From the IMG/VR virus record IMGVR_UViG_2563366918_000005: 42,002 bases of DNA, one strand, 5' to 3'. Under the pieces are notes generated by a model. The model was not told where the DNA came from and made no database searches. It saw only the letters and a list, made by a program, of their open reading frames with translations. Positions 6,683 through 36,568 of this stretch are shown one piece after another. Made by a program: the position numbers and the translations under genes. Position 1 is the stretch's first letter. The number at the start of each line of letters is the position of its first letter. The stretch is from a virus (lineage: Duplodnaviria; Heunggongvirae; Uroviricota; Caudoviricetes).

Positions 6683-6699
6683 ATTACCTTTATGGTAAT
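6683..6699. promoter_or_regulatory. 17-bp palindromic operator ATTACCTTTATGGTAAT (perfect)
   Basis: Member of the WTTACC-N5-GGTAAW family. Lies in the divergent region between tailspike (-) and the SOS-boxed gene (+). Half-site ATTACC also at 6633. Confidence 0.7.
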
Positions 6700-6716
6700 T
6701 TGCAAAACGTGCTGGA

Positions 6717-6753
6717 TAGCAAACAAATTATTTGATACTGTATAAATATACAG
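6717..6753 (+). promoter_or_regulatory. SOS-regulated promoter: LexA box TACTGTATAAATATACAGTT (core CTGT-N8-ACAG 6738-6753) overlapping a TATAAAT -10
   Basis: Matches the consensus TACTGTATATATATACAGTA at 18/20 positions. -10 TATAAAT at 6741-6747, SD GGAG at 6763-6766, ATG at 6775. Confidence 0.85.
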
Positions 6754-6774
6754 TTATTGCATGGAGAAGATAAG

Positions 6775-7032
6775 ATGCAGCGGTATCACTATCCACTGGA
6801 AGACGGATTTACCGAAAGGATTCACACGCCGGGAGGCGTCAGGTCACTGGTGGAGGGATCGCACTTGATGAAATTACTCCGGGATCTCGATAAGGATGGA
6901 TTTAATGTCGATGGCCCACTTGCCGAACTGACTGCACTGATTAACTACGTCACCAGCTCACAGATGTCTATGCGGGATCTGCAAACACATCTCGACTATT
7001 GTGCCGAACAATTACGAAAACAAACCAGATAA
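6775..7032 (+). CDS. small LexA-controlled protein, candidate antirepressor (paralog of the Bro-N protein C-terminus)
   Basis: 85 aa from MQRYHY (GGAG 8 nt upstream; the TTG at 6757 is less likely). Residues HTPGGVRSLVEGSHLMKLLRDLDKDGFNVDGPLAELT...MRDLQTHLDY align with HSPSGVLGLTENSLLMNLLNQLQEDGHDVSGAAAELT...LRDIQTHAEY of the 7347-8039 product. Confidence 0.7.
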   Translation: MQRYHYPLEDGFTERIHTPGGVRSLVEGSHLMKLLRDLDKDGFNVDGPLAELTALINYVTSSQMSMRDLQTHLDYCAEQLRKQTR

Positions 7033-7062
7033 GGTTTGCAATTACCAAGTGGAGTGCTTATA

Positions 7063-7079
7063 TTTACCTTTGAGGTAAA
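7063..7079. promoter_or_regulatory. 17-bp palindromic operator TTTACCTTTGAGGTAAA
   Basis: Same family. Nested between the 7-bp inverted repeats GGAGTGC (7051-7057) and GCACTCC (7088-7094). A weaker neighbour lies at 7041-7057. Confidence 0.6.
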
Positions 7080-7172
7080 TTTACATCGCACTCCTCTTGT
7101 GCCATAGTAATCGGGCACTGGCAAAATCCAGTGCCGGGATTGGTCTCCCGGATTACTACAGAGGCACATATG

Positions 7173-7192
7173 CCGCATAAGCGGTTTTTTTT
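7173..7192 (+). terminator. probable rho-independent terminator (short stem, U8 tail)
   Basis: CCGC-ataa-GCGG followed by TTTTTTTT (7185-7192). The stem is only 4 bp, so strength is uncertain. Confidence 0.45.
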
Positions 7193-7346
7193 ATGTGTAA
7201 AGCGCACCTATTCTATGGTGGGCTGTGTGGGGGCACCGAAAGGTGCGCCGGGTTCCTTTGTAGCCGGTAAGACCAACTCTGCACAGTTCACCACCATCTG
7301 ATTGGTCTCAGCGGTGGTGATTAACCTAACTACAAAGGTGATCGCC

Positions 7347-8039
7347 ATGAATACCAAACCTTCCATCTTTTCCTTTGAGTCATCCTGCCAGATCCGTATG
7401 TTCATGATTGACGGAGAACCTTGGTTTGTCACCAAAGATGTGTGCAATGCTTTGAATATTGATGTTACACAAGCGAGAAAACTTGATAAAAAAGGCTGGA
7501 ACAAAAAGGGGCTGTATTCAATACAGACCCCTGGTGGAATACAAGAACTATCCATCGTTTCAGAATCAGGTCTCTACATCCTTATTCTGCGTTGCAAAGA
7601 GGCAATGACTGAGGGAACGAGAGCATTCAGATTTCTTGAATGGGTTACAGGCGAGGTTCTTCCTCAGATCCGCCGCACCGGAAGTTACATTAAAAACTCG
7701 CTACCGCAGGAAGAACGCATAAAGATGGTTGCCGACCAGGTAGCCAACGCCACGGCGTCAGCAGTAATGCAGGCGATGAAGATAGAGAACAAAACCTACA
7801 ACGCCCCGCTGAAGCCCGGCTACCGCAGCCTGATTCATTCCCCGTCTGGTGTTCTCGGCCTGACGGAGAACTCACTGCTGATGAATCTGCTGAACCAGTT
7901 ACAGGAAGACGGGCACGACGTATCGGGCGCGGCGGCGGAGCTGACCACCATGTTCTGCTACATCGTCGGTGTGAGCAAATGCCTGCGTGATATCCAGACG
8001 CACGCGGAGTACATCAACGACAAAGCAGGGTTCTTCTGA
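7347..8039 (+). CDS. Bro-N domain antirepressor-like protein
   Basis: 230 aa from MNTKPSIFSFES (SD AAGGTGA). N-terminal Bro-N signature (IRMFMIDGEPWFVTKDVCNALNI ... ESGLYILILR ... FLEWVTGEVLPQIRRTGSY). C-terminal ~70 aa paralogous to the 6775-7032 product. Confidence 0.8.
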   Translation: MNTKPSIFSFESSCQIRMFMIDGEPWFVTKDVCNALNIDVTQARKLDKKGWNKKGLYSIQTPGGIQELSIVSESGLYILILRCKEAMTEGTRAFRFLEWVTGEVLPQIRRTGSYIKNSLPQEERIKMVADQVANATASAVMQAMKIENKTYNAPLKPGYRSLIHSPSGVLGLTENSLLMNLLNQLQEDGHDVSGAAAELTTMFCYIVGVSKCLRDIQTHAEYINDKAGFF

Positions 8040-8103
8040 CGGGCGGCGGCACAGGGATGTGCCTTTAAATAATTCTGTACAGATTGCAGGTGAATAGCTT
8101 ACT

Positions 8104-8120
8104 ATTACCTCACGGGTGAT
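8104..8120. promoter_or_regulatory. operator ATTACCTCACGGGTGAT with candidate -35 TTGCAG (8084-8089)
   Basis: One mismatch in the right half-site. Spacing to the TTGCAG hexamer resembles the 25615 promoter/operator arrangement. Confidence 0.55.
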
Positions 8121-8207
8121 CCATAGCGATTAGGCACCGATACAGGAGGAGCCCACATGAGAAAATTTGACGAGTACGAAGGCGTTTAACATTCGGATAG
8201 TTTAATG

Positions 8208-8230
8208 ACGGGGCCATTAGGCCCCGTTTT
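8208..8230 (+). terminator. rho-independent terminator
   Basis: ACGGGGCC-atta-GGCCCCGT followed by TTTC. Sits 18 nt upstream of the GTG start at 8249. Confidence 0.7.
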
Positions 8231-8248
8231 CATGTCTGGAGACAGTTT

Positions 8249-8788
8249 GTGTTAAGTGAAGAAATGCAATTTGCCATGGCTGTGGCTCAAATCGTAAGTG
8301 CAGTCGCGGTTTCGCTTGGCTTGTTCATAGCTATCGCTACTATTATTTATAATGTAAATACAGCGAGAAAAGTACACACTTCAGTATTCCTTGGTGAAAG
8401 CAGGTTTGATGTAGATTATAAGAAAGGCCTATCTACTATGCGCCGCATTCACGAATCGAACAAATCATTCCGCTCTTATATGTATCCAAGCAATGGGCAG
8501 GCTGATCTTACGGATGAAGAAAAGACAGAGAAGAGAGAAATAATTTACTGTCTAGGTTTCTACGAACGCATGGCTGTGAGCGTGAAGCGGAAAACTTATG
8601 ATGAGACCATGATTAAGGAAGTATTTTACAGCTCCGTTGTAAATAACTATCAGATTGCGCTACCTCTTATACAAGCCATTAGAGAAAAAGAAAACATAAA
8701 CACATATTTTAAAGAATATGAATGGTTGGCCACACGATGGAAGGATTGCCCATTGAAGGATAAATCCCCGTGGTACAAGTTTTGGTAA
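8249..8788 (+). CDS. N-terminally membrane-anchored moron protein (resembles DUF4760-type proteins; from memory)
   Basis: 179 aa with GTG start and GGAG 7 nt upstream. Single TM helix AVAVSLGLFIAIATIIYNV, then a soluble domain. AT-rich. Flanked by its own terminators (8208-8230, 8789-8810). Confidence 0.7.
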   Translation: MLSEEMQFAMAVAQIVSAVAVSLGLFIAIATIIYNVNTARKVHTSVFLGESRFDVDYKKGLSTMRRIHESNKSFRSYMYPSNGQADLTDEEKTEKREIIYCLGFYERMAVSVKRKTYDETMIKEVFYSSVVNNYQIALPLIQAIREKENINTYFKEYEWLATRWKDCPLKDKSPWYKFW

Positions 8789-8810
8789 GCCAGCGCTGCG
8801 GGCTTTTTTT
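8789..8810 (+). terminator. rho-independent terminator
   Basis: GCCaGC-gct-GCgGGC followed by T7, immediately after the stop at 8786-8788. Confidence 0.6.
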
Positions 8811-8882
8811 GTGGACGAAACAAAAGTCAGTGCTACACTCATTGACGCCACATTGAGGTGGCTTATAGATGGAAATTTCACA

Positions 8883-9044
8883 ATGAAAAAAGCATTTGCT
8901 GCACTGTTCGTTTTGTTGTCTCTGGTAGCTTCAACTCAGGCTTTTGCCGGTCGTTGTCAGCACGACAGCGATACTGCCGCTGACGGCTCCCGCTGCGGTG
9001 GGCGTTCTGCGGATTCCCGCCCGGGTGGCGGTGGCATTCGTTAA
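8883..9044 (+). CDS. small secreted Gly/Arg/Asp-rich peptide
   Basis: 53 aa from MKKAFAALFVLLSLVASTQAFA (classic Sec signal, AFA cleavage motif). Mature ~31 aa with 2 Cys. Candidate promoter TTGACG-16-TATAGA at ~8842-8869. The longer ORF start 8811 is rejected. Confidence 0.55.
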   Translation: MKKAFAALFVLLSLVASTQAFAGRCQHDSDTAADGSRCGGRSADSRPGGGGIR

Positions 9045-9050
9045 AAACAA

Positions 9051-9066
9051 GGCCGCGAAAGCGGCC
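9051..9066. terminator. GC hairpin between convergent genes; T-tract on the - strand ends the virion operon
   Basis: GGCCGC-gaaa-GCGGCC. On the - strand it is followed by TTGTTTTT. Confidence 0.65.
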
Positions 9067-9075
9067 TGTGACATG

Positions 9076-9372
9076 TCACGTCCCTTTTCTGAATGATAGC
9101 CATTCGAAAAATGATGACATTCCACCGCAGACAACAGCAAAGATGATCCCACCAAAGAAGAGAATGCCAGCCTGCCACCACTCCCACCGCCATACATCCA
9201 CAGCGCCAACCATACCAACAATCGCTCCAACAAATGGAATATAGCTCACGATGAAAGCAATGGGGGCTGCAATTATCCAGTGCAATCCCCACCATGATTC
9301 AAGCCCAGCCATAATTGCTGCCAACTGAAAAAGACCAACGACGATATAAACAATGAATCCTATAGCTTGCAT
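9076..9372 (-). CDS. small polytopic inner-membrane protein (last gene of virion operon)
   Basis: 98 aa, 3-4 hydrophobic helices, Trp-rich (WRWEWWQ). SD GGTGA upstream of the ATG at 9372. Confidence 0.65.
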   Translation of the reverse strand: MQAIGFIVYIVVGLFQLAAIMAGLESWWGLHWIIAAPIAFIVSYIPFVGAIVGMVGAVDVWRWEWWQAGILFFGGIIFAVVCGGMSSFFEWLSFRKGT

Positions 9373-9384
9373 GTAGTCACCTAT

Positions 9385-9558
9385 TTACCCAGTAAAAATC
9401 AGAGGCCTCCCCTCAATAAGGCTTGCAACAAGAACTATTCCCTGCACAACAAAGATGAACCAGCAAATAGCTTGAGTCTGAGGGTTAAGAAAATATTTGT
9501 AGCGGTCAATAAATAACAACCCACCAAAAATTATCACACTCAAAATAATTAAAAACAC
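9385..9558 (-). CDS. unlisted 57-aa two-helix membrane peptide
   Basis: Below the ORF-track cutoff. GTG start with GGAAG 4 nt upstream. Hand translation: MFLIILSVIIFGGLLFIDRYKYFLNPQTQAICWFIFVVQGIVLVASLIEGRPLIFTG. Fills the gap between the 824-aa gene and the 98-aa membrane gene. Confidence 0.45.
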   Translation of the reverse strand: MFLIILSVIIFGGLLFIDRYKYFLNPQTQAICWFIFVVQGIVLVASLIEGRPLIFTG

Positions 9559-16905: not shown

Positions 16906-17369
16906 TATTTTCTCTCCATGTGAAATCTGTGGAAATTAAGACCAAGAGCACCATAAGGCGCGGCTTCTTCAAGCCTGAATCCAAGCCAGTGCAGCCATGC
17001 TTTGGCAACATGGTTTCGCTCGTCGACATAGTTTTCCAGGCGCGGATAAACTGCCAGCATCTGCTGCAATACAGGGCGGCAGTGGCGAAGAAATGTCTTC
17101 TGATATTTTTCGATACGGCTGGTTCCGACCAGCCATGGCGTACCATTGCCACCGATCATTGACGCCGGAGATACGCCAAACATGGTTACCAGTTCTCCGT
17201 TCGCGAACCCTGACCAGGCCATAGTCGCAGTGCGAAGACCAACACGCAGCGCATCTTCGGTAGTCATCAGCGATACCGCATACAGTTCGTCAATATCAGC
17301 CTGACGAACATCCGGCAAAATCATCTGAAGATGCTCTTTGGTGGCGGGAATAATTCGAACATCGATCAT
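16905..17369 (-). CDS. small virion-associated protein (T7 gp13-position analogue; fold unknown)
   Basis: 154 aa, translationally coupled on both sides. Assignment is by position only. Confidence 0.4.
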   Translation of the reverse strand: MIDVRIIPATKEHLQMILPDVRQADIDELYAVSLMTTEDALRVGLRTATMAWSGFANGELVTMFGVSPASMIGGNGTPWLVGTSRIEKYQKTFLRHCRPVLQQMLAVYPRLENYVDERNHVAKAWLHWLGFRLEEAAPYGALGLNFHRFHMERK

Positions 17370-19840: not shown

Positions 19841-20445
19841 CAGGACAACCTCGCAATGGTAAACTCGTCAACCGGTGGCTGTGGTTCCTGTGATTCATTC
19901 TGGCTATGCGAGCCAGCACTAAGAATCACGCGATTGTACATATTGAGGGCAAACGTACCGAGGTCTGCATTCCCAGTCAGCGCCATGTTAATAGCTGCCG
20001 CAAGACGCCAGGCCAACGCCTCCATAAAAATGGCATCAAACATGTTCACATCTGAAACGCGAGAGACATACTTGAGCCATGCCTGAGGCTGGTCTGTGTA
20101 GATCAACTTTCCTGTTCCGTTGGTGTCTGCACCAACTTCGTACTGAACGCGCATTGATGCTGTTGGATTGCGTACACCAGGAAGCATAATTTCAGTAATG
20201 CGCAGACAATCTGACGGGTACTGGTACGCATATTCCCAGTCAGGCGGTGGATTGCTCGTATCTGCAAGCGCCACGCGTTTGGTAGCAAAGTTCCAGTCAA
20301 AATCAGAAAGCACAGCATCACGGCAGGCCTCAAAGTGCAGCGAACATTCCCCCGCTTCCTTGCTGGCTTCCGTCAGGCTGTTAATGCTGCGGCTGTTGCC
20401 AATATTGGACAGCGCACGATTGCAGATCTCTACTACAGAGGCCAT
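19840..20445 (-). CDS. tail tubular protein A-like (adaptor/gatekeeper; T7 gp11 class)
   Basis: 201 aa from MASVVEICNRALSNIGNSRSINSL (SD GGAGGTGA). The pattern N.AL..IG .... W.F is typical of gp11-like proteins. Confidence 0.65.
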   Translation of the reverse strand: MASVVEICNRALSNIGNSRSINSLTEASKEAGECSLHFEACRDAVLSDFDWNFATKRVALADTSNPPPDWEYAYQYPSDCLRITEIMLPGVRNPTASMRVQYEVGADTNGTGKLIYTDQPQAWLKYVSRVSDVNMFDAIFMEALAWRLAAAINMALTGNADLGTFALNMYNRVILSAGSHSQNESQEPQPPVDEFTIARLS

Positions 20446-25546: not shown

Positions 25547-25614
25547 ATCAATGACTCCGTACGCAATTAAATTATTACCAATTTAACCACATATGATTTA
25601 TTTATCGTAGATAG

Positions 25615-25652
25615 TTGACATTTAACGCACAAATTATTACCTTTCAGGTAAG
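25615..25652 (+). promoter_or_regulatory. candidate sigma70 promoter TTGACA-17-TACCTT overlapped by operator ATTACCTTTCAGGTAAG (25636-25652)
   Basis: Perfect -35 at 25615-25620. The -10 keeps only T1, A2 and T6. The operator covers -10/+1. Points towards the tRNA and the IS1-split gene. Confidence 0.55.
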
Positions 25653-25973: not shown

Positions 25974-26050
25974 GTGGCATTAGCTCAGTTGGACAGAGCA
26001 ACCGCCTTCTAAGCGGTTGGTCGCAGGTTCGAATCCTGCATGCCACGCCA
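25974..26050 (+). tRNA. tRNA-Arg (anticodon UCU, reads AGA)
   Basis: 77 nt. Acceptor GTGGCAT/ATGCCAC, D-arm GCTC/GAGC, anticodon stem ACCGC/GCGGT with loop CTTCTAA (TCT at 26008-26010), T-arm GCAGG-TTCGAAT-CCTGC, discriminator G, encoded CCA. Resembles E. coli argU. Confidence 0.93.
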
Positions 26051-26213: not shown

Positions 26214-26237
26214 GCCCGGTTCGCCGGGCATTTTTTT
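26214..26237 (+). terminator. second rho-independent terminator
   Basis: GCCCGG-ttcg-CCGGGC-A-TTTTTTT. Confidence 0.7.
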
Positions 26238-26252: not shown

Positions 26253-26269
26253 ATTACCTTAAAGGTATA
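26253..26269. promoter_or_regulatory. operator-like site ATTACCTTAAAGGTATA overlapping a TATAAT hexamer (26266-26271)
   Basis: Left half perfect, right half GGTATA. -35-like ATGACC at 26243-26248, 17-nt spacer. Confidence 0.5.
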
Positions 26270-26551
26270 ATCATGAAAAACTTCAAGGTAATTAGCATGT
26301 TTGAATCGTTCAAAGAGCTGTTTTTATCTACTGCCAATACTGCCGTGAATCGAGCCAAAAACCCTGTGCTTGGTGCTTTTGTTATGTCCTGGTGCGCCTT
26401 CAACTGGAAATCAATTCTTTATCTATTTTTTAGCAAATCAAACATAATAGATAAAATTTCATATATCTCAGATAACAGCACATGGAAAACTGTTATGTTT
26501 TATCCATGCTTATCTGTAATTGCTATCTGCTGCCTAGGTAATGACTCCAAC

Positions 26552-27055
26552 TTACTGATAGTGTTTTATGTTCAGATAATGCCCGATGACCTTGTCATGC
26601 AGCTCCACCGATTTTGAGAACGACAGTGACTTCCGTCCCAGCCTTGCCAGATGTTGTCTCAGATTCAGGTTATGCCGCTCAATTCGCTGAGTGTAACGCT
26701 TGCTGATTACGTGCAGCTTTCCCTTCAGGCGGGATTCATACAGCGGCCAGCCATCCGTCATCCATACCACGACCTCAAAGGCCGACAGCAGGCTTAGAAG
26801 ACGCTCCAGTGTGGCCAGAGTGCGTTCACCGAATACGTGCGCAACAACCGTCTTCCGGAGCCTGTCATACGCGTAAAACAGCCAGCGCTGGCGCGATTTA
26901 GCCCCGACGTATCCCCACTGTTCGTCCATTTCCGCGCAGACGATGACGTCACTGCCCGGCTGTATGCGCGAGGTTACCGACTGCGGCCTGAGTTTTTTAA
27001 ATGGCGGAAAATCGTGTTGAGGCCAACGCCCATAATGCGGGCGGTTGCCCGGCAT
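26552..27055 (-). CDS. insB: IS1 InsB reading frame (expressed as InsAB-prime by -1 frameshift)
   Basis: 167-aa ORF with ...[21 protein letters not shown]...[11 protein letters not shown]..., recognised as IS1 InsB. Confidence 0.93.
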
Positions 27056-27249
27056 CCAACGCCATTCATGGCCATATCAATGATTTTCTGGTGCGTACCG
27101 GGTTGAGAAGCGGTGTAAGTGAACTGCAGTTGCCATGTTTTACGGCAGTGAGAGCAGAGATAGCGCTGATGTCCGGCGGTGCTTTTGCCGTTACGCACCA
27201 CCCCGTCAGTAGCTGAACAGGAGGGACAGCTGATAGAAACAGAAGCCAC
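26974..27249 (-). CDS. insA: IS1 InsA
   Basis: 91 aa [43 protein letters not shown]..., recognised as IS1 InsA. Confidence 0.95.
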
Positions 27250-27864
27250 TGGAGCACCTCAAAAACACCATCATACACTAAATCAGTAAGTTGGCAGCAT
27301 CACCTGCTGCCTATTACCATGGGTAAACAATATCATTAACGTATGGCAAGCAAAGCCTCTTGATAATAATGACTCAATCGAAAATCACCTGAAGGCAAGA
27401 AAAATCCAGCGTGAAACAAGACTGCAGAGGTTATTGGCTAAAAAAGATGTTACATACGACAAAGTTAAGACTGGCGCGGAAAAAGACATCCAAGAGATGA
27501 AAGAAGAGATTATTCGATCAAAGAATAGTATGGGGGAATTGACTGCCGAGTTGAAAGCTAAAGATGACGAATTGAGATCCGCCAGTGCTCAGTTAGCAGC
27601 TCTAAATCATTCATTAAAAGAGATATCGGAAACTCTTGGAAGAATGAATGAGGCATATAAGACCCTCCAAAATGATTTCGACGAATACAAACTCAAATAC
27701 CCTGAAAAATCTCAAATAAAAAGCCTTGAACTTGGCAACGGCCAAACAATTAGCAACTTTTTGGAGCAACACAACTTATCCGGATTAAAATCTGGTAAGC
27801 CAAACGTTTTTAATAACTTTGGTGTTCTATCTGGATTATCAGGTTTCGAGGATAAAAATAAAGA

Positions 27865-29340
27865 CTAAGCATATGGATCGTACTCGGTAAGCGCCTTGCC
27901 TTGCTGGTTCTGCTGCCCGGGAAGTCGCAGGCGCTTTGACACCGGGAAAGCAAACGTCAGCAGTAGCGCATCGCCTTTACCAGGCGAACGCCCAAGTCGT
28001 TCTTTGATATCTTCCTTCGGTTCGATAACGATTTTACCGTCCACGCGAACTTTGTACTCTGCCGCCGACAGATCGTCCGCTGTTTCCTGGTCATCCAGCA
28101 TCCCGCCCAACCTCAGCCATGTCTTGCATGAGTTGAACATCTCCCCGCGCTTGTTGAGCATCTGAGGGTCAGTTGACGCACCACCGAACGGAACAAGTTG
28201 CCATGTGCGCCCCCAGCCGTCACCGATTGACTTCAGACCGGTTCCGTAACCGAAGTCGATGAACACCGCGTCAGCCTGATACTGGTCTTCAAAGTCAGCG
28301 ATACGCTTCGCCATAATCAGATCGTCAGTGGTCTTGTTGCCAGTCCATAGCACCTTACTATGCAACCCCTGCCGCAGGTATATCACCGCGTCATCAACGC
28401 CTGAATATGCCGGGTCAACACCGATTATCACCGGAGCATGTGCCACCTGCGCAGCGGTTACCACCCGTTTCATTGCCTCATCAGTAAGACCGGTAGGGAT
28501 AAACTGCAATTCAGATGCATCAGGGAATATGCCGCGCACACGGATTTTAACGAAGTCGCTGTCTTCCCCGTAGTCATCAACCCATTTCTGCAACTGCTGT
28601 TTGTTAGTACCTTCCACCGTCCGGCTGTCAATCTGCGCAGTTTTCCAGCGGTGTTTGTATTTGCGGAAACATTCGCGAAAACGCCCGGTATTACGTGTAG
28701 GGTTTCCGAACGCCACCCAGATAATCTCAGTGTCTTCGTCCGTAAGCGCACCCTCAGCAACTTCCCACACCAGATCCGCAATGTTCGACGCTTCATCGAA
28801 TACCACGATGATGCGTTTGCGCTCGTTGTGTAGTCCGGCGAATGCCTCAGTGTTGTGCTCAGACCAGGGGATTGCGTCAGCTCGCCACCGCTTGTCGTGC
28901 CCAGGATCATTGCTGTACATCGCGGTAGCGGTACAGGTAAACCAGTCTTTCGTGATAGCAAGGTTCGACCACTTGATAATTTCCGGCCAGGTCTTCGTTC
29001 GTAGCTGGTTGTCGGTGTTGGCGGTCACCACGACCTTACAATCCTCGCAAGTGGACATGCCCCAGTTGATCAGCATTGAGATGAATGCGGATTTACCAAT
29101 ACCGTGACCAGAAGCACGTGCCAGCATAAGCGGCTGATAACGCGTCTCTGGATTCTGCAGGTGATCACGTATCTCTCGGAACGCATCGGCCTGCCACTGA
29201 CGTGGGCCGGTAGCATGTGCCAGTTCAGTCCCCTCTTCCCCCCACGGGAACGCATAGAGGGCATAGCCAAGCGGATCGTGAGTGAACCCTGCAATATCCT
29301 CGATTAACTGCTCTTCAGGAGATAACGCTGTATCTGTCAC
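27865..29340 (-). CDS. terminase large subunit
   Basis: 491 aa, GTG start. Walker A SGHGIGKS. Acidic motif IIVVFDEAS. Follows the small-subunit gene with a 4-nt overlap. Confidence 0.88.
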   Translation of the reverse strand: MTDTALSPEEQLIEDIAGFTHDPLGYALYAFPWGEEGTELAHATGPRQWQADAFREIRDHLQNPETRYQPLMLARASGHGIGKSAFISMLINWGMSTCEDCKVVVTANTDNQLRTKTWPEIIKWSNLAITKDWFTCTATAMYSNDPGHDKRWRADAIPWSEHNTEAFAGLHNERKRIIVVFDEASNIADLVWEVAEGALTDEDTEIIWVAFGNPTRNTGRFRECFRKYKHRWKTAQIDSRTVEGTNKQQLQKWVDDYGEDSDFVKIRVRGIFPDASELQFIPTGLTDEAMKRVVTAAQVAHAPVIIGVDPAYSGVDDAVIYLRQGLHSKVLWTGNKTTDDLIMAKRIADFEDQYQADAVFIDFGYGTGLKSIGDGWGRTWQLVPFGGASTDPQMLNKRGEMFNSCKTWLRLGGMLDDQETADDLSAAEYKVRVDGKIVIEPKEDIKERLGRSPGKGDALLLTFAFPVSKRLRLPGQQNQQGKALTEYDPYA

Positions 29341-29933
29341 TGATTACCATCCTGACGTTCTTTGAGTCGCTTCCTGGCTGCTGCTATGCGATCAGCAATT
29401 GTCACATTCACATTAACATCCAGACGTTCTTTGAACGCGTTGACATCAACATGCTTACCAATCAGCTCAAGGTTCTTCACCTTGTCAGGCCATTTAATTT
29501 TTTTGAGGATTGTCTCTATCGAATCCTCGTTCATGTTCATGATGGTCGATGACAAATCAAAGCCACTAAGCGTAGTGCGCCAGATTTTCGGCCACTCACG
29601 GATTGGTTTAAGGCTCCCATCGTCGTTGAGGATGTCGATCACGTCCATCTGGTCGATCTGCACCAGGCGCATGAGAACGTAATCAGCACTGACGCGCATT
29701 CGTTTGTTGCGCTCCTCCATCAACTCGGCAATCCGTTTTTGAATGCGTTCATCGCGCATCATGACACTGGCTTTAACTGCCGCTGTATTTGGGGAGAATC
29801 CTGCGTTAATCGCTGCCTGAGTCTGGTTTTCAGGCGTTTTGATGTATGACTGGCAATAAGCCTCCTGCATTGCTGTTAGTGGCTTAAATTGCGTTGATTT
29901 GCGTTTATAGGTTTTAGGTTCAGCAGGCATCAT
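29337..29933 (-). CDS. terminase small subunit
   Basis: 198 aa from MMPAEPKTYKRKSTQFKPLTAMQEAYCQSYIKTPENQTQAAINAGFS (HTH-like N-terminus typical of the Terminase_2 family). The longer TTG start at 30011 would run through the operators and terminator and is rejected. Confidence 0.8.
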   Translation of the reverse strand: MMPAEPKTYKRKSTQFKPLTAMQEAYCQSYIKTPENQTQAAINAGFSPNTAAVKASVMMRDERIQKRIAELMEERNKRMRVSADYVLMRLVQIDQMDVIDILNDDGSLKPIREWPKIWRTTLSGFDLSSTIMNMNEDSIETILKKIKWPDKVKNLELIGKHVDVNAFKERLDVNVNVTIADRIAAARKRLKERQDGNQ

Positions 29934-29966
29934 AACCACCGTGGTAATAGTTACCGTTGTGGTAAT
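29932..29966. promoter_or_regulatory. two abutting operators ATAACCACCGTGGTAAT (29932-29948) and GTTACCGTTGTGGTAAT (29950-29966) over the terS start
   Basis: Same 17-bp family, 1-bp gap. The first overlaps the terS ATG ATG. Confidence 0.65.
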
Positions 29967-29976
29967 AGTACCATGC

Positions 29977-30002
29977 AAAATAAAGCCGCCATAGTTGGCG
30001 GC
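29977..30002 (-). terminator. rho-independent terminator between early-left genes and terS
   Basis: On the - strand: GCCGCC-aactat-GGCGGC followed by TTTATTTT. Confidence 0.7.
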
Positions 30003-30051
30003 AGTATTCAAAACCCATCAAATTCATCATGCATAATCTACTCGTGACATG

Positions 30052-30390
30052 TCACACTATTAATTTCGTTTCATGCCAGCCTTTAGTCACCCAGCATTGC
30101 GAGTCACCATTACACGGGCATGAATTAACTGGAACTCTCTCGCCGCACTTACCGCAACATTTTCTGCTGATCGATTTTATACGCCCGCGCACGCGTGCAT
30201 CATCCTGGCGGATCAGTAACGCTATATACTCACCAAATTCGTAAGGCGCACGCCCGGGGCGACGCGTGGCACAGTTACGCTCCAGCATTTCAATTTCCTG
30301 AGCATCAAGCACAATTTCCAGCTTACGCACACCAGATGCAGCTTGTCTGGCTCTCTGAGCGGCTTTGCGCTCTGCTGCTGATTTAGCCAT
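30052..30390 (-). CDS. hypothetical protein with basic helical N-terminus and Cys-rich C-terminus (candidate regulator)
   Basis: 112 aa. N-terminus MAKSAAERKAAQRARQAASG. C-terminal CCGKCGERVPVNSCPCNGDSQC. Last early-left gene before the late terminator. Confidence 0.55.
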   Translation of the reverse strand: MAKSAAERKAAQRARQAASGVRKLEIVLDAQEIEMLERNCATRRPGRAPYEFGEYIALLIRQDDARVRGRIKSISRKCCGKCGERVPVNSCPCNGDSQCWVTKGWHETKLIV

Positions 30391-33061: not shown

Positions 33062-33406
33062 TCAGAACTCTTCGATGTTCCAGCCACCACCTGCTTTCTT
33101 TGGTTTAACCGTTACCCCGATGATTCGGAACGGATACTGATCTGCGGCGACTTTGGTTTTCACCCTGGCGTCGTCGGTCCAGAAACCTTTCACTTCGTGC
33201 AGTTCCATCTCGCCGGTGGCGAGCATCACAGCAAAATCGGGCGTATAGAACGTGTTGTCAGCTAACCGCAGCTTGATACCCTCAAATCGATACCAGACGA
33301 TTTCTCCTGCACGTTTACGCAGCTCAAGGTGCTGGCAATACGCAGATTCTGTTTTGTTCATCTGTCCTGTTTTGAGTCGACCAAGAGCCTGTATCTGTTT
33401 TCTCAT
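33062..33406 (-). CDS. DUF1064-like protein, probable PD-(D/E)xK nuclease
   Basis: 114 aa. YTPDF ... ELHEVKG fits a PD...ExK motif. Confidence 0.55.
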   Translation of the reverse strand: MRKQIQALGRLKTGQMNKTESAYCQHLELRKRAGEIVWYRFEGIKLRLADNTFYTPDFAVMLATGEMELHEVKGFWTDDARVKTKVAADQYPFRIIGVTVKPKKAGGGWNIEEF

Positions 33407-33408: not shown

Positions 33409-33487
33409 TTTACCCCTGAGGTAATTAAAAACCACATAAGACACGAAATCAATAGATTTTAGAATATTTTATTACCTAACAGGTAAT
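33409..33487. promoter_or_regulatory. two operators TTTACCCCTGAGGTAAT (33409-33425) and ATTACCTAACAGGTAAT (33471-33487)
   Basis: Same family, 62 bp centre-to-centre. The first abuts the DUF1064-like start codon. Confidence 0.65.
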
Positions 33488-33523: not shown

Positions 33524-34309
33524 TTACTTGATAAATCCTGCCGCCTTTCCTCGCCTGTATTCCTCCATCAGCCACTGCGCCGGTGTTATTCCCCCAAGGG
33601 TGGCGGCGTTAGGCATGCACCCGAAACTTCGCCCTGGTGGATGGTAAACGTCTCTCCCTGTGTCCGGAGGCGTACTCATGGGTTCTGGCTTTGCCTGTAT
33701 GCTGATCACCGGATCGGGTATCTGCTGTCCGGAAGCCACCTTTTTCGCCCAATCATCGAGCAGCCTGCGCGCGTGTTTCTCAACCTCTATCTCGCTAAGC
33801 TGGCGCTGATACATTGCACGGCGGGTATCACATACGACCCAGTACATAACCGGATGCCGCCACGGGAATCTTTCGGGACCACCAGGATATAAACTTTTTT
33901 CCTTGCTGTACCGGTGAAACTCCGTCATCACATCGTCAATGGTGACGCCAAGAACCATCTTGCTGTCTTTGCACCACTTGATGAATTGCCCTGGCGACGG
34001 CCAGAACGGAGAATCACTGGCGCGGGCGTGGCGCATACCAGCAGAAACCTGTTCACGGGTTCGGATCCCCCCTTCGGCAAACGCAGCAATCCACTGCTGT
34101 TTTGCAGCAACTTCCTGCTCTGGCGTCTTCAGGTTGGTTACCACTGCCGCCGGAAACAGTTGTTTCAACTGTTTGAAAAGGGCATCAACAAGCCTCTCTG
34201 CTGACATGTTCACTACGTTGTCATTGTTGACGTACTGATGCTCATAACCTGACATGCGAGAAAGGGCTTCTCCGTCACGGTTTTGTATTGCGGTAAAAAC
34301 GTTGTTCAC
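33524..34309 (-). CDS. lambda P-like replication (helicase-loader) protein
   Basis: 261 aa from GTG 34309. SD GGGAGGA 6 nt upstream; GTGA overlap with the O-like stop. Aligns by eye with lambda P (…WIAAFAEGGIRTREQVSAGMRHARASDSPFWPSPGQFIKWC versus lambda …WVLAFRENGITTMEQVNAGMRVARRQNRPFLPSPGQFVAWC). ATG 34324 is the alternative start. Confidence 0.85.
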   Translation of the reverse strand: MNNVFTAIQNRDGEALSRMSGYEHQYVNNDNVVNMSAERLVDALFKQLKQLFPAAVVTNLKTPEQEVAAKQQWIAAFAEGGIRTREQVSAGMRHARASDSPFWPSPGQFIKWCKDSKMVLGVTIDDVMTEFHRYSKEKSLYPGGPERFPWRHPVMYWVVCDTRRAMYQRQLSEIEVEKHARRLLDDWAKKVASGQQIPDPVISIQAKPEPMSTPPDTGRDVYHPPGRSFGCMPNAATLGGITPAQWLMEEYRRGKAAGFIK

Positions 34310-35097
34310 AAGAAATCCTCCCATGCTTCAGGGCTGTTCCAGTGCGGAACGTTGTTATCAGGTAATGTTGATTGCTTCTGTCTGCTAATCTGCAGCCGCC
34401 TTGCCAGCTTCTGCTCCCACTGCGCCTGATGGTATGCCTTACCCTCAGCCATCCAGTAAATTCTGAACTCTGCAAGTTCCTGTGCCGTTGGCAGACTGTC
34501 CAGGTAGATCCCCTGCAATGAGCTTTTCCGAAGAAAGTCATCTGATGGTTGCCATTGTTCATGCATGACAAATTTGCCTAATTGCCCTGGCCCACCAGGA
34601 GGAACAAAGTTATTCATCACGGCGTTGTTTGCGCCGGGGTCATGAGGCACAGAATCCCCGCTTTTTGTCCTGCTCTCCCTCTCTTGGTTAAATGACTGGT
34701 TATATGACTGGTTCTGGATCCCGTTTTTGGGATCATTCAACATCCCGTTTTTGGGTATATTCCCGTTTTCGGTAACATTACCGTTTTCGGGTTCATTACC
34801 CCCTTCCCGGTTGCCTTTAATGTTCCCGTTTTTGGTTATATTAAGAGAGAAAACCCGCACTCTTTTCGTCGCTCCCTTTCTCTCTCCGGTATCTGAAATA
34901 AGCCCCATTTTCATGAGCGATATAAGCCCGGCCTGCACGGTTTTTTTATTCAGGCAAGTGTCTTTAACGAGGCGTTCTATGCTGGGGTAGCAGAGGTTAT
35001 ATTCATCGGCTCTGTCAGCCATCGAGAGCAGTATGAGCTTTAATGACGAGCTACCTGGATCTGTCTCCCAGGCCCAATCTGTTGCATGTCTGCTCAT
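34306..35097 (-). CDS. replication initiator (lambda O-like role; winged-helix N-terminus, iteron-encoding middle)
   Basis: 263 aa. N-terminal HTH-like LKLILLSMADRADEYNLCYPSIERLVKDTCLNKKTVQAGLISL. Repeated NG/PKNG peptide encoded by the iterons. Immediately upstream of the P-like gene. Confidence 0.75.
   Translation of the reverse strand: MSRHATDWAWETDPGSSSLKLILLSMADRADEYNLCYPSIERLVKDTCLNKKTVQAGLISLMKMGLISDTGERKGATKRVRVFSLNITKNGNIKGNREGGNEPENGNVTENGNIPKNGMLNDPKNGIQNQSYNQSFNQERESRTKSGDSVPHDPGANNAVMNNFVPPGGPGQLGKFVMHEQWQPSDDFLRKSSLQGIYLDSLPTAQELAEFRIYWMAEGKAYHQAQWEQKLARRLQISRQKQSTLPDNNVPHWNSPEAWEDFL
34719..34835. repeat. origin iterons: 5-6 copies of TCCCGTTTT(T/C)GG(G) at 18-24 bp spacing inside the initiator gene
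   Basis: Copies at 34719, 34743, 34761, 34779, (34805, degenerate) and 34824. Adjacent direct repeat ATGACTGGTT x2 (34692-34714). Confidence 0.75.
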
Positions 35098-35112
35098 GAT
35101 TAATCTCCGCTA

Positions 35113-35313
35113 TCAGCTTGAATGTTGTGGGGAGGAATTAATCATGATCTGCTTAATCTCTGCCCTGATACGACGGTTTGATTCCATGGTGCACTCAACA
35201 CAGTGTCCGTTGTAAACCCAGCGTTCACTGTCATGTCCGTGCTTACATGTTTTTCCGGTGTAGTAGCGTTTAAGTCCGCGCTTTGCGGCATCAATACGTG
35301 TAATGATTTCCAT
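35113..35313 (-). CDS. small Cys/His-containing early protein (start uncertain)
   Basis: 66 aa from MEIITRIDAAKRGLKRYYTGKTCKHGHDSERWVYNGHCVECT (CxHxH...CxxC). No strong SD. Longer alternatives up to 35376. Confidence 0.5.
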   Translation of the reverse strand: MEIITRIDAAKRGLKRYYTGKTCKHGHDSERWVYNGHCVECTMESNRRIRAEIKQIMINSSPQHSS

Positions 35314-35392
35314 GGTAAGCCCTGTTATTAGTATTGGGATTACGGTCATTTTGTGCTGACACAAAAAAAATATCAACCAGATTTGGTTTTTT

Positions 35393-35409
35393 ATTACCTT
35401 TGAGGTACG
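35393..35409. promoter_or_regulatory. operator ATTACCTTTGAGGTACG
   Basis: Same family. Just downstream (- direction) of the terminator at 35419-35442. Confidence 0.55.
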
Positions 35410-35418
35410 AATAGATAT

Positions 35419-35442
35419 GAAAAGACCGCCGGGTGGCGGTCT
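35419..35442 (-). terminator. rho-independent terminator after the Cro-like gene
   Basis: On the - strand: AGACCGCC-accc-GGCGGTCT followed by TTTTCAT. Confidence 0.7.
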
Positions 35443-35463
35443 ACAGAGGGTTGTGGCTGGATA

Positions 35464-35694
35464 TCATGAGTAGAAGAAGTATGCCAGTTCTGCTTTTGAG
35501 CGCAGCCATTGTCTTGTTTTACAGGCTTTAAAAAGCCCATTCATCAATACTTTACCTGGCATTTTGCGCTTACCTGTTAAGTGAGTCTGGATATAGTGAC
35601 TCGTCGTTCCGGCTTCCTGTGCGAAGGCTTCACGCTCATCCGGAGTAAGTGCAAGCCAGTGCTTTTTGAAATCGAAATGTCCGTTATCGCTCAT
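35464..35694 (-). CDS. Cro-like HTH regulator
   Basis: 76 aa. First gene of the leftward early operon, divergent from the repressor. HTH-like EAFAQEAGTTSHYIQTHLTG. Confidence 0.65.
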   Translation of the reverse strand: MSDNGHFDFKKHWLALTPDEREAFAQEAGTTSHYIQTHLTGKRKMPGKVLMNGLFKACKTRQWLRSKAELAYFFYS

Positions 35695-35729
35695 AGCTAT
35701 TGCCTGATATTTATTTCAGATAATAAATA

Positions 35730-35794
35730 TTCACCCATAAGGTAACAAAAATCAAGGATAGTTACCTATGAGGTGCATTTACCTGTTGGGTAAT
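35730..35794. promoter_or_regulatory. immunity operator cluster: TTCACCCATAAGGTAAC (35730), GTTACCTATGAGGTGCA (35761), TTTACCTGTTGGGTAAT (35778)
   Basis: Three sites in the 154-bp divergent region. The last two abut directly. Candidate leftward promoter TTGATT-17-GAATAT overlaps the first site. Confidence 0.7.
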
Positions 35795-35848
35795 ATTGCT
35801 TTAAATTGAATCATCTACTGATTCATATATGAGGCGATTTTCCAGAAA

Positions 35849-36433
35849 ATGAAAAGTATCCAGGACGTCCGCAGGCAAAATCTCAACGACTTGATCGACC
35901 GTGAATTCAATGGTGTTCAGACGCGGATGGCAGAAAAACTTGGAACTCAGGCAAATCTGGTAAACCGCTGGGCTCTTGGCAAGAAGGTTATCGGCGACCA
36001 GGTTGCACGAAAAATTGAAGCTGCCGCCAATAAACCCCGTAACTGGCTTGATATTGATCGCTCGCTTTCTCAGGAGGGTTTTCAGCCTGTCGGCCCGAGC
36101 GATATAGGTCAGCTGGCGGCTCACAACCTGGAACGCTGGATGAGCGAAAGCCGCGACCTTTCAACGCAGGGAAAACTACACCGCGCATCCGGCGTCGCCC
36201 AGGTGACAATCAGCCGCCTGTTAAACAATGAGGTCAGCGTTTCCATTTCCACCCTGGAGAATGTTGCATCCGCATTCGGGCGTCACGGCTATGAATTACT
36301 GATTCACCCGCACGACCCTGCGACCATCAACTATGATCGCTCGCGCTACGCATTGTTACCCGAAACCGAGAAAGCAAAGATCGAAAGTTACATTGAATTT
36401 GTCATCAACCAGAACGAAAAAAACAAACAATAA
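35849..36433 (+). CDS. prophage repressor with two tandem HTH (XRE-type) domains and no S24 peptidase domain
   Basis: 194 aa. HTH 1 is TRMAEKLGTQANLVNRWALG. HTH 2 is KLHRASGVAQVTISRLLNN. Only ~35 aa follow the second HTH. No SD before the ATG (possibly leaderless). Confidence 0.75.
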   Translation: MKSIQDVRRQNLNDLIDREFNGVQTRMAEKLGTQANLVNRWALGKKVIGDQVARKIEAAANKPRNWLDIDRSLSQEGFQPVGPSDIGQLAAHNLERWMSESRDLSTQGKLHRASGVAQVTISRLLNNEVSVSISTLENVASAFGRHGYELLIHPHDPATINYDRSRYALLPETEKAKIESYIEFVINQNEKNKQ

Positions 36434-36453
36434 AATCATATTTTTCAGTAAGT

Positions 36454-36478
36454 AAGCCGCCAGAAGGCGGCTTTTTTA
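36454..36478 (+). terminator. rho-independent terminator after the repressor gene
   Basis: AAGCCGCC-agaa-GGCGGCTT followed by TTTTATT. Confidence 0.8.
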
Positions 36479-36489
36479 TTGCCTATTCG

Positions 36490-36568
36490 ATTACCTAATG
36501 GGTAATTTTTTTAACTCATATCTATTGACATCAAACCAGATACGCATAATTATTACCTCAACGGTAAC
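36490..36568 (+). promoter_or_regulatory. rightward early promoter region: operator ATTACCTAATGGGTAAT (36490), -35 TTGACA (36525-36530), operator ATTACCTCAACGGTAAC (36552)
   Basis: Perfect -35. The -10 is ambiguous (TAATTA / AATTAT, 36547-36553). Operators flank the promoter. Confidence 0.6.

What the first reader, a model, noticed from the sequence alone, without database searches (positions are those of the whole stretch)
6683..36568. A 17-bp palindrome (WTTACC-N5-GGTAAW) marks essentially every operon boundary of the prophage
By hand I found 15 copies, all in intergenic DNA:
- 6683 ATTACCTTTATGGTAAT
- 7063 TTTACCTTTGAGGTAAA
- 8104 ATTACCTCACGGGTGAT
- 25636 ATTACCTTTCAGGTAAG
- 26253 ATTACCTTAAAGGTATA
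- 29932 ATAACCACCGTGGTAAT
- 29950 GTTACCGTTGTGGTAAT
- 33409 TTTACCCCTGAGGTAAT
- 33471 ATTACCTAACAGGTAAT
- 35393 ATTACCTTTGAGGTACG
- 35730 TTCACCCATAAGGTAAC
- 35761 GTTACCTATGAGGTGCA
- 35778 TTTACCTGTTGGGTAAT
- 36490 ATTACCTAATGGGTAAT
- 36552 ATTACCTCAACGGTAAC

There are also half-sites or weak sites at 6633, 7041 and 25574. Three copies in the cro/repressor divergent region are what an immunity operator should look like. The other 12 precede the tailspike/antirepressor region, two morons, the tRNA cargo, the terminase gene and internal early modules.

The prophage has under 3 kb of intergenic DNA in total, so this density is far above chance. It implies that one dimeric regulator addresses nearly all transcription units directly. 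Candidates are the tandem-HTH repressor and/or the Cro-like protein. That logic is closer to the P1 C1 multi-operator system or to mycobacteriophage L5 stoperators than to lambda. I cannot tell from here whether this network has been described for this phage group.
Basis: seen in the sequence. Interest (0 to 1): 0.7.

Follow-up and report, generated by a model that had tools for sequence, protein, structure and literature searches.

The report
Scattered repressor operators of a phiV10-like prophage
The 17-bp palindrome is real and marks almost every transcription-unit start of this prophage, but it is the already annotated operator of the ε15/SPC32H-type phage repressor, so the finding is correct and largely already known.

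Summary
All 15 sites exist exactly as written. TTACC-N5-GGTAA with at most 1 mismatch occurs 15 times, 14 of them in the 7.7% of the window that is non-coding (p≈3e-15).

The window is a phiV10-like Uetakevirus prophage. The same palindrome sits at homologous positions in phiV10, ε15, SPC32H, Tyrion and Klebsiella phage BUCT711, with 11-15 sites per genome. The ε15 RefSeq record already annotates seven of these sites as 'protein_bind: repressor'.

The repressor (35849-36433) is a full-length homologue of SPC32H Rep (PDB 5D50). Rep is a tetramer that binds palindromic sites and is inactivated by a small LexA-controlled antirepressor. That antirepressor is here (6775-7032, 87% identical), with a LexA box at 6736-6755.

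The best reading is that one phage repressor directly silences nearly every unit and is removed everywhere at once by Ant. This works like the P1 C1 network but is not homologous to it. The regulator is a tetramer, not a dimer.

Small increments seen here:
- Operator pairs spaced exactly 62 bp.
- Tandem operators between a terminator and the terS start.
- A P1 immI-like isrK-C4-Bro module behind one operator.
- A second conserved palindrome, AACCATATATGGTT.

Novelty is low.

The parts
6683..6699 (.). Rep operator ATTACCTTTATGGTAAT in the tailspike/ant divergent region
   Evidence: The homologous site in ε15 (19895-19911) is annotated 'repressor'. Conserved in 6 genomes.
6736..6755 (+). LexA box TACTGTATAAATATACAGTT just upstream of ant
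   Evidence: There is one such box per genome, next to ant in 5 of the 6 genomes. Sequence shown.
6775..7032 (+). ant, a small antirepressor of 85 aa
   Evidence: 87% identical to SPC32H Ant (Ant is annotated in KC911856).
7063..7079 (.). Rep operator abutting the -35 (TTTACA 7080-7085) of the isrK-C4-Bro unit
   Evidence: Conserved 380-383 bp from the 6683 site in phiV10 and Tyrion.
7115..7191 (+). isrK-like sRNA with terminator
   Evidence: Rfam RF01394, 74.7 bits against a gathering score of 50. Starts 7 nt after the predicted -10 CATAGT.
7211..7298 (+). C4 antisense RNA (P1/P7 immI type)
   Evidence: Rfam RF01695, 78.6 bits against a gathering score of 45.
7302..8039 (+). Bro-N domain protein (second putative antirepressor, immI-like). 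The true start codon is uncertain.
   Evidence: Pfam Bro-N, E=1.9e-13.
8104..8120 (.). Rep operator ATTACCTCACGGGTGAT before a mini-ORF and the DUF4760 cargo gene (8249-8788)
   Evidence: Absent from phiV10 itself; the region is shared with phiv142-3 and HEMP4.
25636..25652 (.). Rep operator overlapping the -10 region of a conserved TTGACA promoter (25615-25620, + strand) that reads towards tRNA-Arg. Divergent from gp3 (25546<-).
   Evidence: The ε15 homologue 2931-2947 is annotated 'repressor'.
25974..26050 (+). tRNA-Arg(UCU), downstream of the operator-controlled promoter
26253..26269 (.). Rep operator ATTACCTTAAAGGTATA fused to the -10 TATAAT (26266-26271) of the cargo-gene promoter
   Evidence: The same 17-mer sits at the int promoter of phiV10 and SPC32H.
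29932..29966 (.). Two abutting Rep operators (29932-29948 and 29950-29966) between a terminator (30002-29985, - strand) and the terS ATG (29931)
   Evidence: The ε15 homologue 12-27 is annotated 'repressor'.
33409..33425 (.). Rep operator covering the Shine-Dalgarno region of the DUF1064 gene (ATG at 33406, - strand). Downstream member of a 62-bp pair.
33471..33487 (.). Rep operator in the spacer of promoter TCGATA-16-TAAAAT (33493-33466, - strand). Upstream member of the 62-bp pair.
   Evidence: The ε15 homologue 35906-35922 is annotated 'repressor'.
35393..35409 (.). Rep operator between the cro terminator (35442-35423) and the promoter TTGATA-17-CAAAAT (35376-35348, - strand)
35464..35694 (-). 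Cro-like HTH protein (76 aa)
   Evidence: phrog_35 'transcriptional repressor', E=5.6e-13. The motif 'AGTTSHYIQTHLT' is invariant in 5 genomes.
35730..35794 (.). Three Rep operators in the rep/cro switch region (35730-35746, 35761-35777, 35778-35794). The first overlaps the predicted PR (TTGTTA-17-TATTAT, 35748-35720, - strand).
   Evidence: The same 17 + 30/31 bp spacing is found in phiV10, ε15 and SPC32H; Tyrion and BUCT711 have only two scoring sites there.
35849..36433 (+). rep, an SPC32H-type repressor (194 aa)
   Evidence: PDB 5D50, E=4e-42 over residues 1-190. 100% identical to phiV10 p40. The N-terminal 'NLVNRW' is invariant.
36490..36506 (.). Rep operator upstream of the PL -35, just after the rep terminator (36454-36473). 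Member of a 62-bp pair.
   Evidence: The ε15 homologues are annotated 'repressor'.
36525..36553 (+). PL core promoter TTGACA-17-AATTAT
   Evidence: The -35 and -10 are invariant in 6 genomes.
36552..36568 (.). Rep operator overlapping the end of the PL -10 and the start site. Member of the 62-bp pair.

Best explanation
The 15 palindromes are operators of the prophage's own repressor Rep (35849-36433), a member of the ε15/SPC32H Rep family.

How it works:
- In the lysogen, Rep occupies an operator at or next to the core promoter of nearly every phage transcription unit: PR/cro, its own promoter, PL, two internal early-right units, terS, the tRNA/gp3 region, the tailspike/ant region, the isrK-C4-Bro unit, two cargo units and, outside the window, int. 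Silencing is therefore direct and unit by unit, not a cascade from two early promoters.
- Each palindrome is bound by a pair of N-terminal HTH domains.
- Rep binds DNA as a tetramer with two such head pairs. This fits the paired sites: exactly 62 bp (about 6 helical turns) apart around PL and the DUF1064 promoter, and abutting (17-18 bp) at terS and in the switch region.
- DNA damage cleaves LexA and frees the LexA box in front of ant (6736-6755). Ant (6775-7032) takes Rep tetramers apart, and all units are derepressed together.
- The Cro-like protein probably shares at least the switch-region sites.

Shown here: the sites, their enrichment, their positions, their conservation, and the homology of Rep, Ant and the LexA box.
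Taken from the literature or from record annotation: that Rep binds palindromic sites as a tetramer and is disassembled by Ant, and that these sites are labelled 'repressor' in ε15.
Inferred: the promoter assignments, the role of the 62-bp pairs, and Cro sharing the sites.
For: - Enrichment and non-coding restriction.
- Three sites lie between the divergent rep and cro genes and overlap predicted promoters. PL is flanked by two sites.
- The same motif occurs at homologous positions in six Uetakeviruses from four host genera. Footprints show invariant half-sites and a free central 5 bp.
- The ε15 RefSeq record annotates seven homologous sites as 'protein_bind, repressor, lysogeny'.
- Rep is a full-length homologue of SPC32H Rep, PDB 5D50 and 5D4Z.
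- PMC9638917 states that SPC32H Rep binds DNA as a tetramer. It also says the head pairs that bind the palindromic sites come from different dimers, and that Ant breaks the tetramer.
- Ant is 87% identical to SPC32H Ant and has a LexA box in front of it.
- Over-expressing the identical repressor in phage ZX5 cut holin and endolysin transcripts by more than 99.9% (PMC9782041).
- The recognition-helix region 'NLVNRW' is invariant across the genus, matching the invariant operator.
- The 62-bp spacing is kept in 11 of 12 pairs (63 bp in the other) with no indels, although the intervening sequence diverges.
Against: - No binding data for these sites could be read directly. Kropinski 2007 and Kim 2013/2016 are not held, and the ε15 feature table gives no experimental qualifier.
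- Rep and the Cro-like protein are both invariant in their HTH regions, and the motif never changes. Co-variation therefore cannot separate the two candidates.
- Several single operators (6683, 7063, 35393) lie just upstream of the predicted -35 rather than over the core promoter. No sigma-70 promoter is evident at terS. Simple occlusion therefore does not explain every site.
- Promoters are consensus predictions only. Their overall count is not above the shuffle expectation.
Confidence: 0.85

Rival explanations
1. The palindromes are bound mainly or only by the Cro-like protein (35464-35694), acting as a lytic-phase regulator. Rep would recognise something else.
For: Cro-like is an HTH protein in a 'transcriptional repressor' PHROG. 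Its putative recognition region is invariant across the genus, as is the motif. Cro proteins generally share operators with their repressor (established knowledge of lambdoid switches).
Against: The ε15 record assigns the sites to the repressor. SPC32H Rep is reported to bind palindromic sites. Repressor over-expression alone silences late genes. Sites at int, ant and cargo promoters make sense for a lysogenic repressor. Shared use is likely; exclusive use is not.
Confidence: 0.07
2. A subset of the sites works as elongation roadblocks, stoperator-like, rather than as promoter operators. These are the tandem pair before terS, 33409, 35393 and 36490, all just downstream of terminators.
For: Four or five sites follow an intrinsic terminator within 15-30 bp. 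No sigma-70 promoter is visible between the terminator and terS. Site 33409 lies at about +40 of its predicted promoter, over the ribosome-binding site.
Against: The sites are palindromic, with no orientation bias. Most overlap or flank conserved -35/-10 elements. The terminator-operator-promoter order is equally what one expects at the start of a new unit. This refines the main explanation rather than replacing it.
Confidence: 0.2
3. The motif is the site of a host transcription factor, or of another phage protein such as the N15 gp46-like regulator at 30052-30390, and not of Rep or Cro.
For: The motif is identical in phages of Escherichia, Salmonella, Enterobacter and Klebsiella, which share many host factors. 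The 30052-30390 product belongs to a 'transcriptional regulator' PHROG.
Against: A cluster of three sites sits exactly in the rep/cro switch region. The ε15 annotation assigns the sites to the repressor. I know of no enterobacterial factor with this consensus (own knowledge, not tested). There are no copies in the 1.9 kb of flanking non-phage DNA, although that stretch is too short to be informative.
Confidence: 0.03
4. The repeats are module-boundary recombination sequences, or a chance or compositional feature, with no regulatory role.
For: Some sites coincide with breaks in homology to phiV10: 26253 next to the break at 26237, and 8104 next to the break at 8050. The same 17-mer occurs at the cargo promoter here and at Pint in phiV10.
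Against: The statistics exclude chance. Half-site-specific conservation with a free centre, and the fixed geometry relative to -35/-10, indicate protein recognition. Most sites lie inside fully conserved regions.
Confidence: 0.02

Closest known systems
ε15 / SPC32H (Uetakevirus) Rep-operator-Ant immunity system
   Same: - Full-length Rep homologue (42-43% identity overall, N-terminal DNA-binding region much higher).
- The same ATTACC-N5-GGTAAT palindrome at the same genomic positions.
- Ant is 87% identical and has a LexA box.
- Same gene order.
   Different: - This prophage and phiV10 add the isrK-C4-Bro module with its own operator, which ε15 and SPC32H lack.
- It has cargo units with operators at 8104 and 26253.
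- It lacks the operator before the lysis cassette, because no conversion gene separates tailspike and lysis genes here.
- The ε15 record lists only 7 of the 14 sites that score in ε15.
Phage P1 C1 repressor with its dispersed operators and the immI (c4-icd-ant) operon
   Same: One repressor directly controls many separate operons through dispersed 17-bp operators. A repressor-controlled promoter drives a C4 antisense RNA followed by an antirepressor-type gene (the P1 facts are from established knowledge).
   Different: - The P1 operators are asymmetric and C1 is unrelated in sequence (established knowledge; not tested here). Here the sites are palindromes and the protein is an HTH_3/XRE-type tetramer.
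- Induction here runs through LexA and then Ant.
Mycobacteriophage L5 gp71 stoperators
   Same: Many copies of one repressor site spread through the genome in short intergenic gaps. Some copies here lie downstream of terminators or start sites.
   Different: L5 sites are 13-bp, asymmetric, orientation-dependent and act on elongation (established knowledge). These are symmetric and mostly promoter-associated.
Lambda CI/Cro tripartite OR switch
   Same: 17-bp two-fold symmetric operators. Three operators sit between the divergent repressor and cro genes. Cooperative pairs lie on the same helical face.
   Different: - Operators are not confined to PL and PR.
- The repressor has no S24 autocleavage domain.
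- Induction is by an antirepressor.

Membership tests
Uetakevirus (ε15/SPC32H-type) Rep-operator-Ant system | Repressor homologous over its full length to SPC32H Rep | tested here: met
   phmmer against the PDB: 5D50_A, E=4e-42, residues 1-190. Alignment of 5 Reps.
Uetakevirus (ε15/SPC32H-type) Rep-operator-Ant system | Operator palindrome ATTACC-N5-GGTAAT, as annotated 'repressor' in the ε15 RefSeq record | tested here: met
   The ε15 annotated sites read ATTACC..GGTAAT. The window sites have the same consensus.
Uetakevirus (ε15/SPC32H-type) Rep-operator-Ant system | Operators at homologous genome positions (terS, gp3, tail fibre/ant, PL, rep/cro, internal early) | tested here: met
Uetakevirus (ε15/SPC32H-type) Rep-operator-Ant system | Small Ant antirepressor preceded by a LexA box | tested here: met
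   87% identity to SPC32H Ant. LexA box at 6736-6755.
Uetakevirus (ε15/SPC32H-type) Rep-operator-Ant system | Physical binding of Rep to the 17-mers and release by Ant | not testable with these tools
   Known only from secondary citation. The primary papers are not held.
P1 C1 multi-operator network | Many dispersed operators, each controlling a separate operon | tested here: met
   15 sites at about 11 unit starts.
P1 C1 multi-operator network | C1-family repressor and asymmetric operator | tested here: not met
   The sites are palindromic. The protein matches HTH_3 and SPC32H Rep only. The asymmetry of the P1 operator is from established knowledge.
P1 C1 multi-operator network | Repressor-controlled immI operon with C4 antisense RNA upstream of an antirepressor gene | tested here: met
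   Operator 7063, then isrK, then C4 (RF01695, 78.6 bits), then the Bro-N gene.
Mycobacteriophage L5 stoperators | Asymmetric sites oriented with transcription | tested here: not met
   Symmetric PWM with both half-sites equal.
Mycobacteriophage L5 stoperators | Sites act within transcribed regions, away from promoters | tested here: inconclusive
   Most sites overlap or flank predicted promoters. The terS pair and 33409 lie downstream of a terminator or start site. No transcript data are available.
Lambda-type CI switch | Three operators between divergent repressor and cro genes | tested here: met
   Sites at 35730, 35761 and 35778.
Lambda-type CI switch | RecA-stimulated self-cleaving (S24) C-terminal domain | tested here: not met
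   No Peptidase_S24 hit. The C-terminal half matches the SPC32H Rep tetramerisation region.

The most novel reading that the evidence does not exclude
The repressor network has structure beyond a list of operators.

(a) Rep tetramers clamp promoters through operator pairs held at exactly 62 bp. They may also tie single operators into 337-712-bp loops that enclose ant, cro, rep and the tRNA unit.

(b) A second, apparently undescribed 14-bp palindrome, AACCATATATGGTT, sits at fixed 20 or 40-44 bp offsets from Rep operators. It occurs at the late, lysis and some early promoters across the genus. It would mark a second regulator layer, either a host factor or a phage late regulator, that works together with Rep.
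Probability: 0.3. Interest if true: 0.5.

Novelty: already known. Interest (0 to 1): 0.2.

Why it matters
The finding shows that a temperate podovirus group common in E. coli, Salmonella, Enterobacter and Klebsiella keeps lysogeny by direct, unit-by-unit repression with a single tetrameric repressor. One LexA-controlled antirepressor releases that repression everywhere.

This is useful for annotating phiV10-type prophages, whose records lack these sites. It also helps in engineering phiV10 reporter phages and in predicting which cargo genes are silent in lysogens. It does not open a new question, because the sites and the regulator were already described for ε15 and SPC32H.

Tried and rejected
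- I tried to read the primary papers: Kropinski 2007 (PMC2698709 and its DOI), Kim 2016 PNAS (PMC4983836) and Kim & Ryu 2013 (DOI and PMC3807360). None is held.
- A full-text search for my remembered consensus string ATTACCWDWWNGGTAAT found nothing. That recollection stays unverified.
- Searches for ATTACC/GGTAAT with phage and repressor, and for Uetakevirus with repressor binding sites, gave nothing relevant.
- A co-variation test between motif and regulator was not possible. All six genomes share the motif, and both Rep and Cro are invariant in their HTH regions.
- I considered treating 6633 and 25574 as degenerate operators at 50 and 62 bp from full sites. I rejected this because the whole 28-bp block at 25566-25593 is invariant in six genomes and carries a different motif.
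- I considered that the 26253 cargo promoter was copied from Pint, since the 17-mer is identical. The flanks are unrelated, so this is unsupported.
- PADLOC gave no convincing defence assignment for the cargo genes.
- I did not run the large protein-database searches. More distant Rep homologues would not separate Rep from Cro as the binder.

Full report
**Observation.** All 15 17-mers are present at the stated coordinates with the stated sequences.
- The strict pattern WTTACC-N5-GGTAAW occurs 6 times against 0.02 expected.
- TTACC-N5-GGTAA with up to 2 mismatches occurs 38 times against 11.6 expected.
- I built a curated gene and RNA map from the phiV10 annotation, Pfam, PHROG and Rfam hits, and ORFs. 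On it the window has 3,216 non-coding bases (7.7%).
- 14 of the 15 hits with at most 1 mismatch lie in that non-coding DNA (Fisher p=3e-15). Markov simulations of non-coding composition give a mean of 0.12 hits and a maximum of 2.
- A symmetrised PWM puts the 15 sites at 13.3-22.9 bits. The only comparable hit is 3658 at 13.2 bits, inside a CDS. Everything else scores 10.9 or less.

**What the window is.** It is a phiV10-like prophage of the genus Uetakevirus.
- It is 95-98% identical to phiV10 over most of its length and inverted relative to the phiV10 record.
- The att core ATTGAGTGGGAATGATT at 1873-1889 marks one prophage end.
- The integrase gene runs to the right edge of the window.

**The sites are already annotated in ε15.** The ε15 RefSeq record (NC_004775.2) carries seven 'protein_bind / repressor / lysogeny' features:
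- before terS;
- before gp3;
- between gp19 and the tail fibre gene;
- three at PL;
- one before the RuvC gene.

These features read ATTACC-N5-GGTAAT, the same palindrome as in the window.

**Conservation across the genus.** I scanned phiV10, ε15, SPC32H, Enterobacter phage Tyrion and Klebsiella phage BUCT711 with the window's PWM. Each genome has 11-15 sites at homologous places:

| Position | Sites |
|---|---|
| before terS | one or two |
| before gp3 | one |
| ant/tailspike divergent region | one |
| after ant (phiV10, Tyrion, BUCT711) | one |
| before the lysis cassette, only where a conversion gene intervenes | one |
| at the int promoter (outside this window) | one |
| at PL | a pair |
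| between rep and cro | three in phiV10, ε15 and SPC32H; two scoring sites in Tyrion and BUCT711 |
| after the cro terminator | one |
| before the DUF1064/RuvC gene | a pair |

Alignments of the orthologous intergenic regions show invariant half-sites and a variable central 5 bp. The adjacent -35 and -10 hexamers are also invariant, for example PL TTGACA-17-AATTAT. This is the footprint of a protein-recognition site.

**The regulator.**
- The 194-aa product of 35849-36433 is identical to phiV10 p40.
- It is a full-length homologue of the Salmonella phage SPC32H repressor, whose structures are PDB 5D50 and 5D4Z (E=4e-42).
- A paper that was readable here summarises the SPC32H work. Rep binds DNA as a tetramer, and the dimer binds only weakly.
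- In that account, the head pairs that bind the palindromic sites come from different dimers.
- The tetrameric antirepressor Ant binds two Rep dimers and breaks the tetramer (PMC9638917).
- The N-terminal region, including 'NLVNRW', is invariant among five Reps that are otherwise only about 43% identical. This agrees with an unchanged operator.
- Pfam finds the clear HTH_3 match in residues 106-147, and only a weak YdaS-like HTH in residues 21-61. By my recollection of the 2016 abstract, the N-terminal domain is the DNA-binding one.
- Over-expression of the identical repressor in phage ZX5 reduced holin and endolysin transcripts by more than 99.9% (PMC9782041).

**The release mechanism.**
- The ORF 6775-7032 is 87% identical to SPC32H Ant.
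- A near-consensus LexA box (TACTGTATAAATATACAGTT, 6736-6755) sits just upstream of its ribosome-binding site. There is one such box per genome.

**Anatomy of individual sites.**

| Site(s) | Position relative to nearby features |
|---|---|
| 36490 and 36552 | PL (36525-36553) lies between them, 62 bp apart; 36552 overlaps the end of the -10 and the start site |
| 33471 and 33409 | 33471 fills the spacer of TCGATA-16-TAAAAT; 33409, 62 bp away, covers the ribosome-binding site of the DUF1064 gene |
| 35730 | overlaps the predicted PR |
| 35761 and 35778 | abut each other next to the rep side |
| 25636 | overlaps the -10 region of a genus-conserved TTGACA promoter that points at tRNA-Arg(UCU) |
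| 26253 | fused to the TATAAT of a cargo-gene promoter |
| 7063 | abuts the -35 of a promoter whose predicted start coincides with an isrK-like sRNA (7115-7191); a C4 antisense RNA (7211-7298) and a Bro-N gene follow, an arrangement like P1 immI |
| 29932 and 29950 | between an intrinsic terminator and the terS ATG; no sigma-70 promoter is evident there |
| 35393 and 36490 | each follows a terminator |

- The 62-bp spacing holds in 11 of 12 pairs across six genomes (63 bp in the other). There are no indels, although the intervening sequence diverges.
- About 11 of the roughly 13 recognisable unit starts in the window carry a site. The exceptions are the lysis cassette, which here follows directly on the tailspike gene, and a small unit at 8931-9233.

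**Mechanism.**
- I conclude, with confidence about 0.85, that these are Rep operators and that Rep silences nearly every unit directly.
- A tetramer with two head pairs explains the phased 62-bp pairs and the abutting pairs. That link is an inference.
- Induction runs from LexA to Ant to Rep disassembly, and derepresses all units at once.
- The Cro-like protein (phrog_35, with an invariant HTH region) probably shares at least the switch-region sites. Exclusive Cro binding is unlikely.
- A roadblock role for the terminator-proximal sites is possible but untested.

**Comparison with known systems.**
- This is a member of the ε15/SPC32H Rep-operator-Ant system. All the sequence-level defining features tested here were met.
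- It works like the P1 C1 network: dispersed operators, and even a C4-RNA immI-like module. It fails membership because the operators are palindromic and the repressor is unrelated.
- It is not an L5 stoperator system, because the sites are symmetric and mostly promoter-associated.
- It shares the tripartite switch region with lambda. It lacks an S24 cleavage domain, and its operators are not confined to PL and PR.

**Novelty and score.**
- The network is already annotated for ε15, and the regulator has been characterised structurally and functionally for SPC32H. The finding is therefore correct but already known.
- The increments seen here are:
  - the full site list for a phiV10-type prophage;
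  - the strict 62-bp pairs;
  - operator-bearing cargo promoters, also seen with a different cargo gene in phage EC.W1-9;
  - the immI-like module;
  - a second conserved palindrome, AACCATATATGGTT, at fixed offsets from Rep operators.
- Interest is 0.2.

Noticed in passing
window 3860-3873, 6644-6657, 25585-25598 (inside the invariant block 25566-25593), 35375-35388; a degenerate copy in the PL spacer around 36536-36549: A second conserved 14-bp palindrome, AACCATATATGGTT. With up to 2 mismatches to a 12-mer core it matches 15 times against 3.3 expected. It lies before the lysis cassette, tailspike and gp3, and over the -35 of the unit after cro. In the other five Uetakeviruses it sits at fixed centre-to-centre offsets of 20 or 40-44 bp from a Rep operator. 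It is absent from the rep/cro switch region. Its binder is unknown.
   Followed up: partly
window 7115-7191, 7211-7298, 7302-8039: An isrK-like sRNA and a C4 antisense RNA (both above the Rfam gathering scores) are followed by a Bro-N gene. This is a P1/P7 immI-like module, present in addition to the small LexA-controlled Ant. The ORF 7131-7301 ('Ash' hit) is probably spurious.
   Followed up: partly
window 26297-26617, 26552-27278, 27434-27868: An IS1 element (InsA/InsB) splits a phrog_4780 cargo gene into two ORFs.
   Followed up: yes
window 1219-1889: The prophage att core ATTGAGTGGGAATGATT lies at 1873-1889. Just outside it is an IS200-type transposase gene (1219-1728) with its STnc490 RNA (1687-1810). 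Positions 1-1071 encode a glycine-zipper protein and a DUF5384 protein that are not in phiV10.
   Followed up: partly
window 29932-30011; L001 41-130: The phiV10 record starts terS at a TTG that places two operators and an intrinsic terminator inside the CDS. ATG 29931 (a 198-aa protein) matches the ε15, SPC32H and Tyrion annotations. The phiV10 CDS p04 also overlaps the tRNA-Arg(UCU) gene (window 25974-26050) on the opposite strand.
   Followed up: yes
L006 1501-1610 (phage EC.W1-9): A different 201-aa cargo gene sits at the same locus. It also has the order terminator, promoter-like sequence, operator (GTTACCTTGAAGGTAAG). In phiV10, ε15 and SPC32H, by contrast, the cargo gene follows the terminator with no operator. 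Operator-bearing promoters seem to travel with some cargo alleles.
   Followed up: partly
L005 382-401 (Klebsiella phage BUCT711): The only strong LexA box in BUCT711 is not next to its ant homologue (17054-17314). It lies between two small early genes near the genome end. A weaker CTGT-less box may sit before ant (ATATGTATATATATACAGTA in the alignment).
   Followed up: no
window 30044-30055: A perfect 12-bp palindrome, GTGACATGTCAC, overlaps the stop codon of the N15 gp46-like regulator gene. It lies just before the terminator that precedes the terS operators.
   Followed up: no
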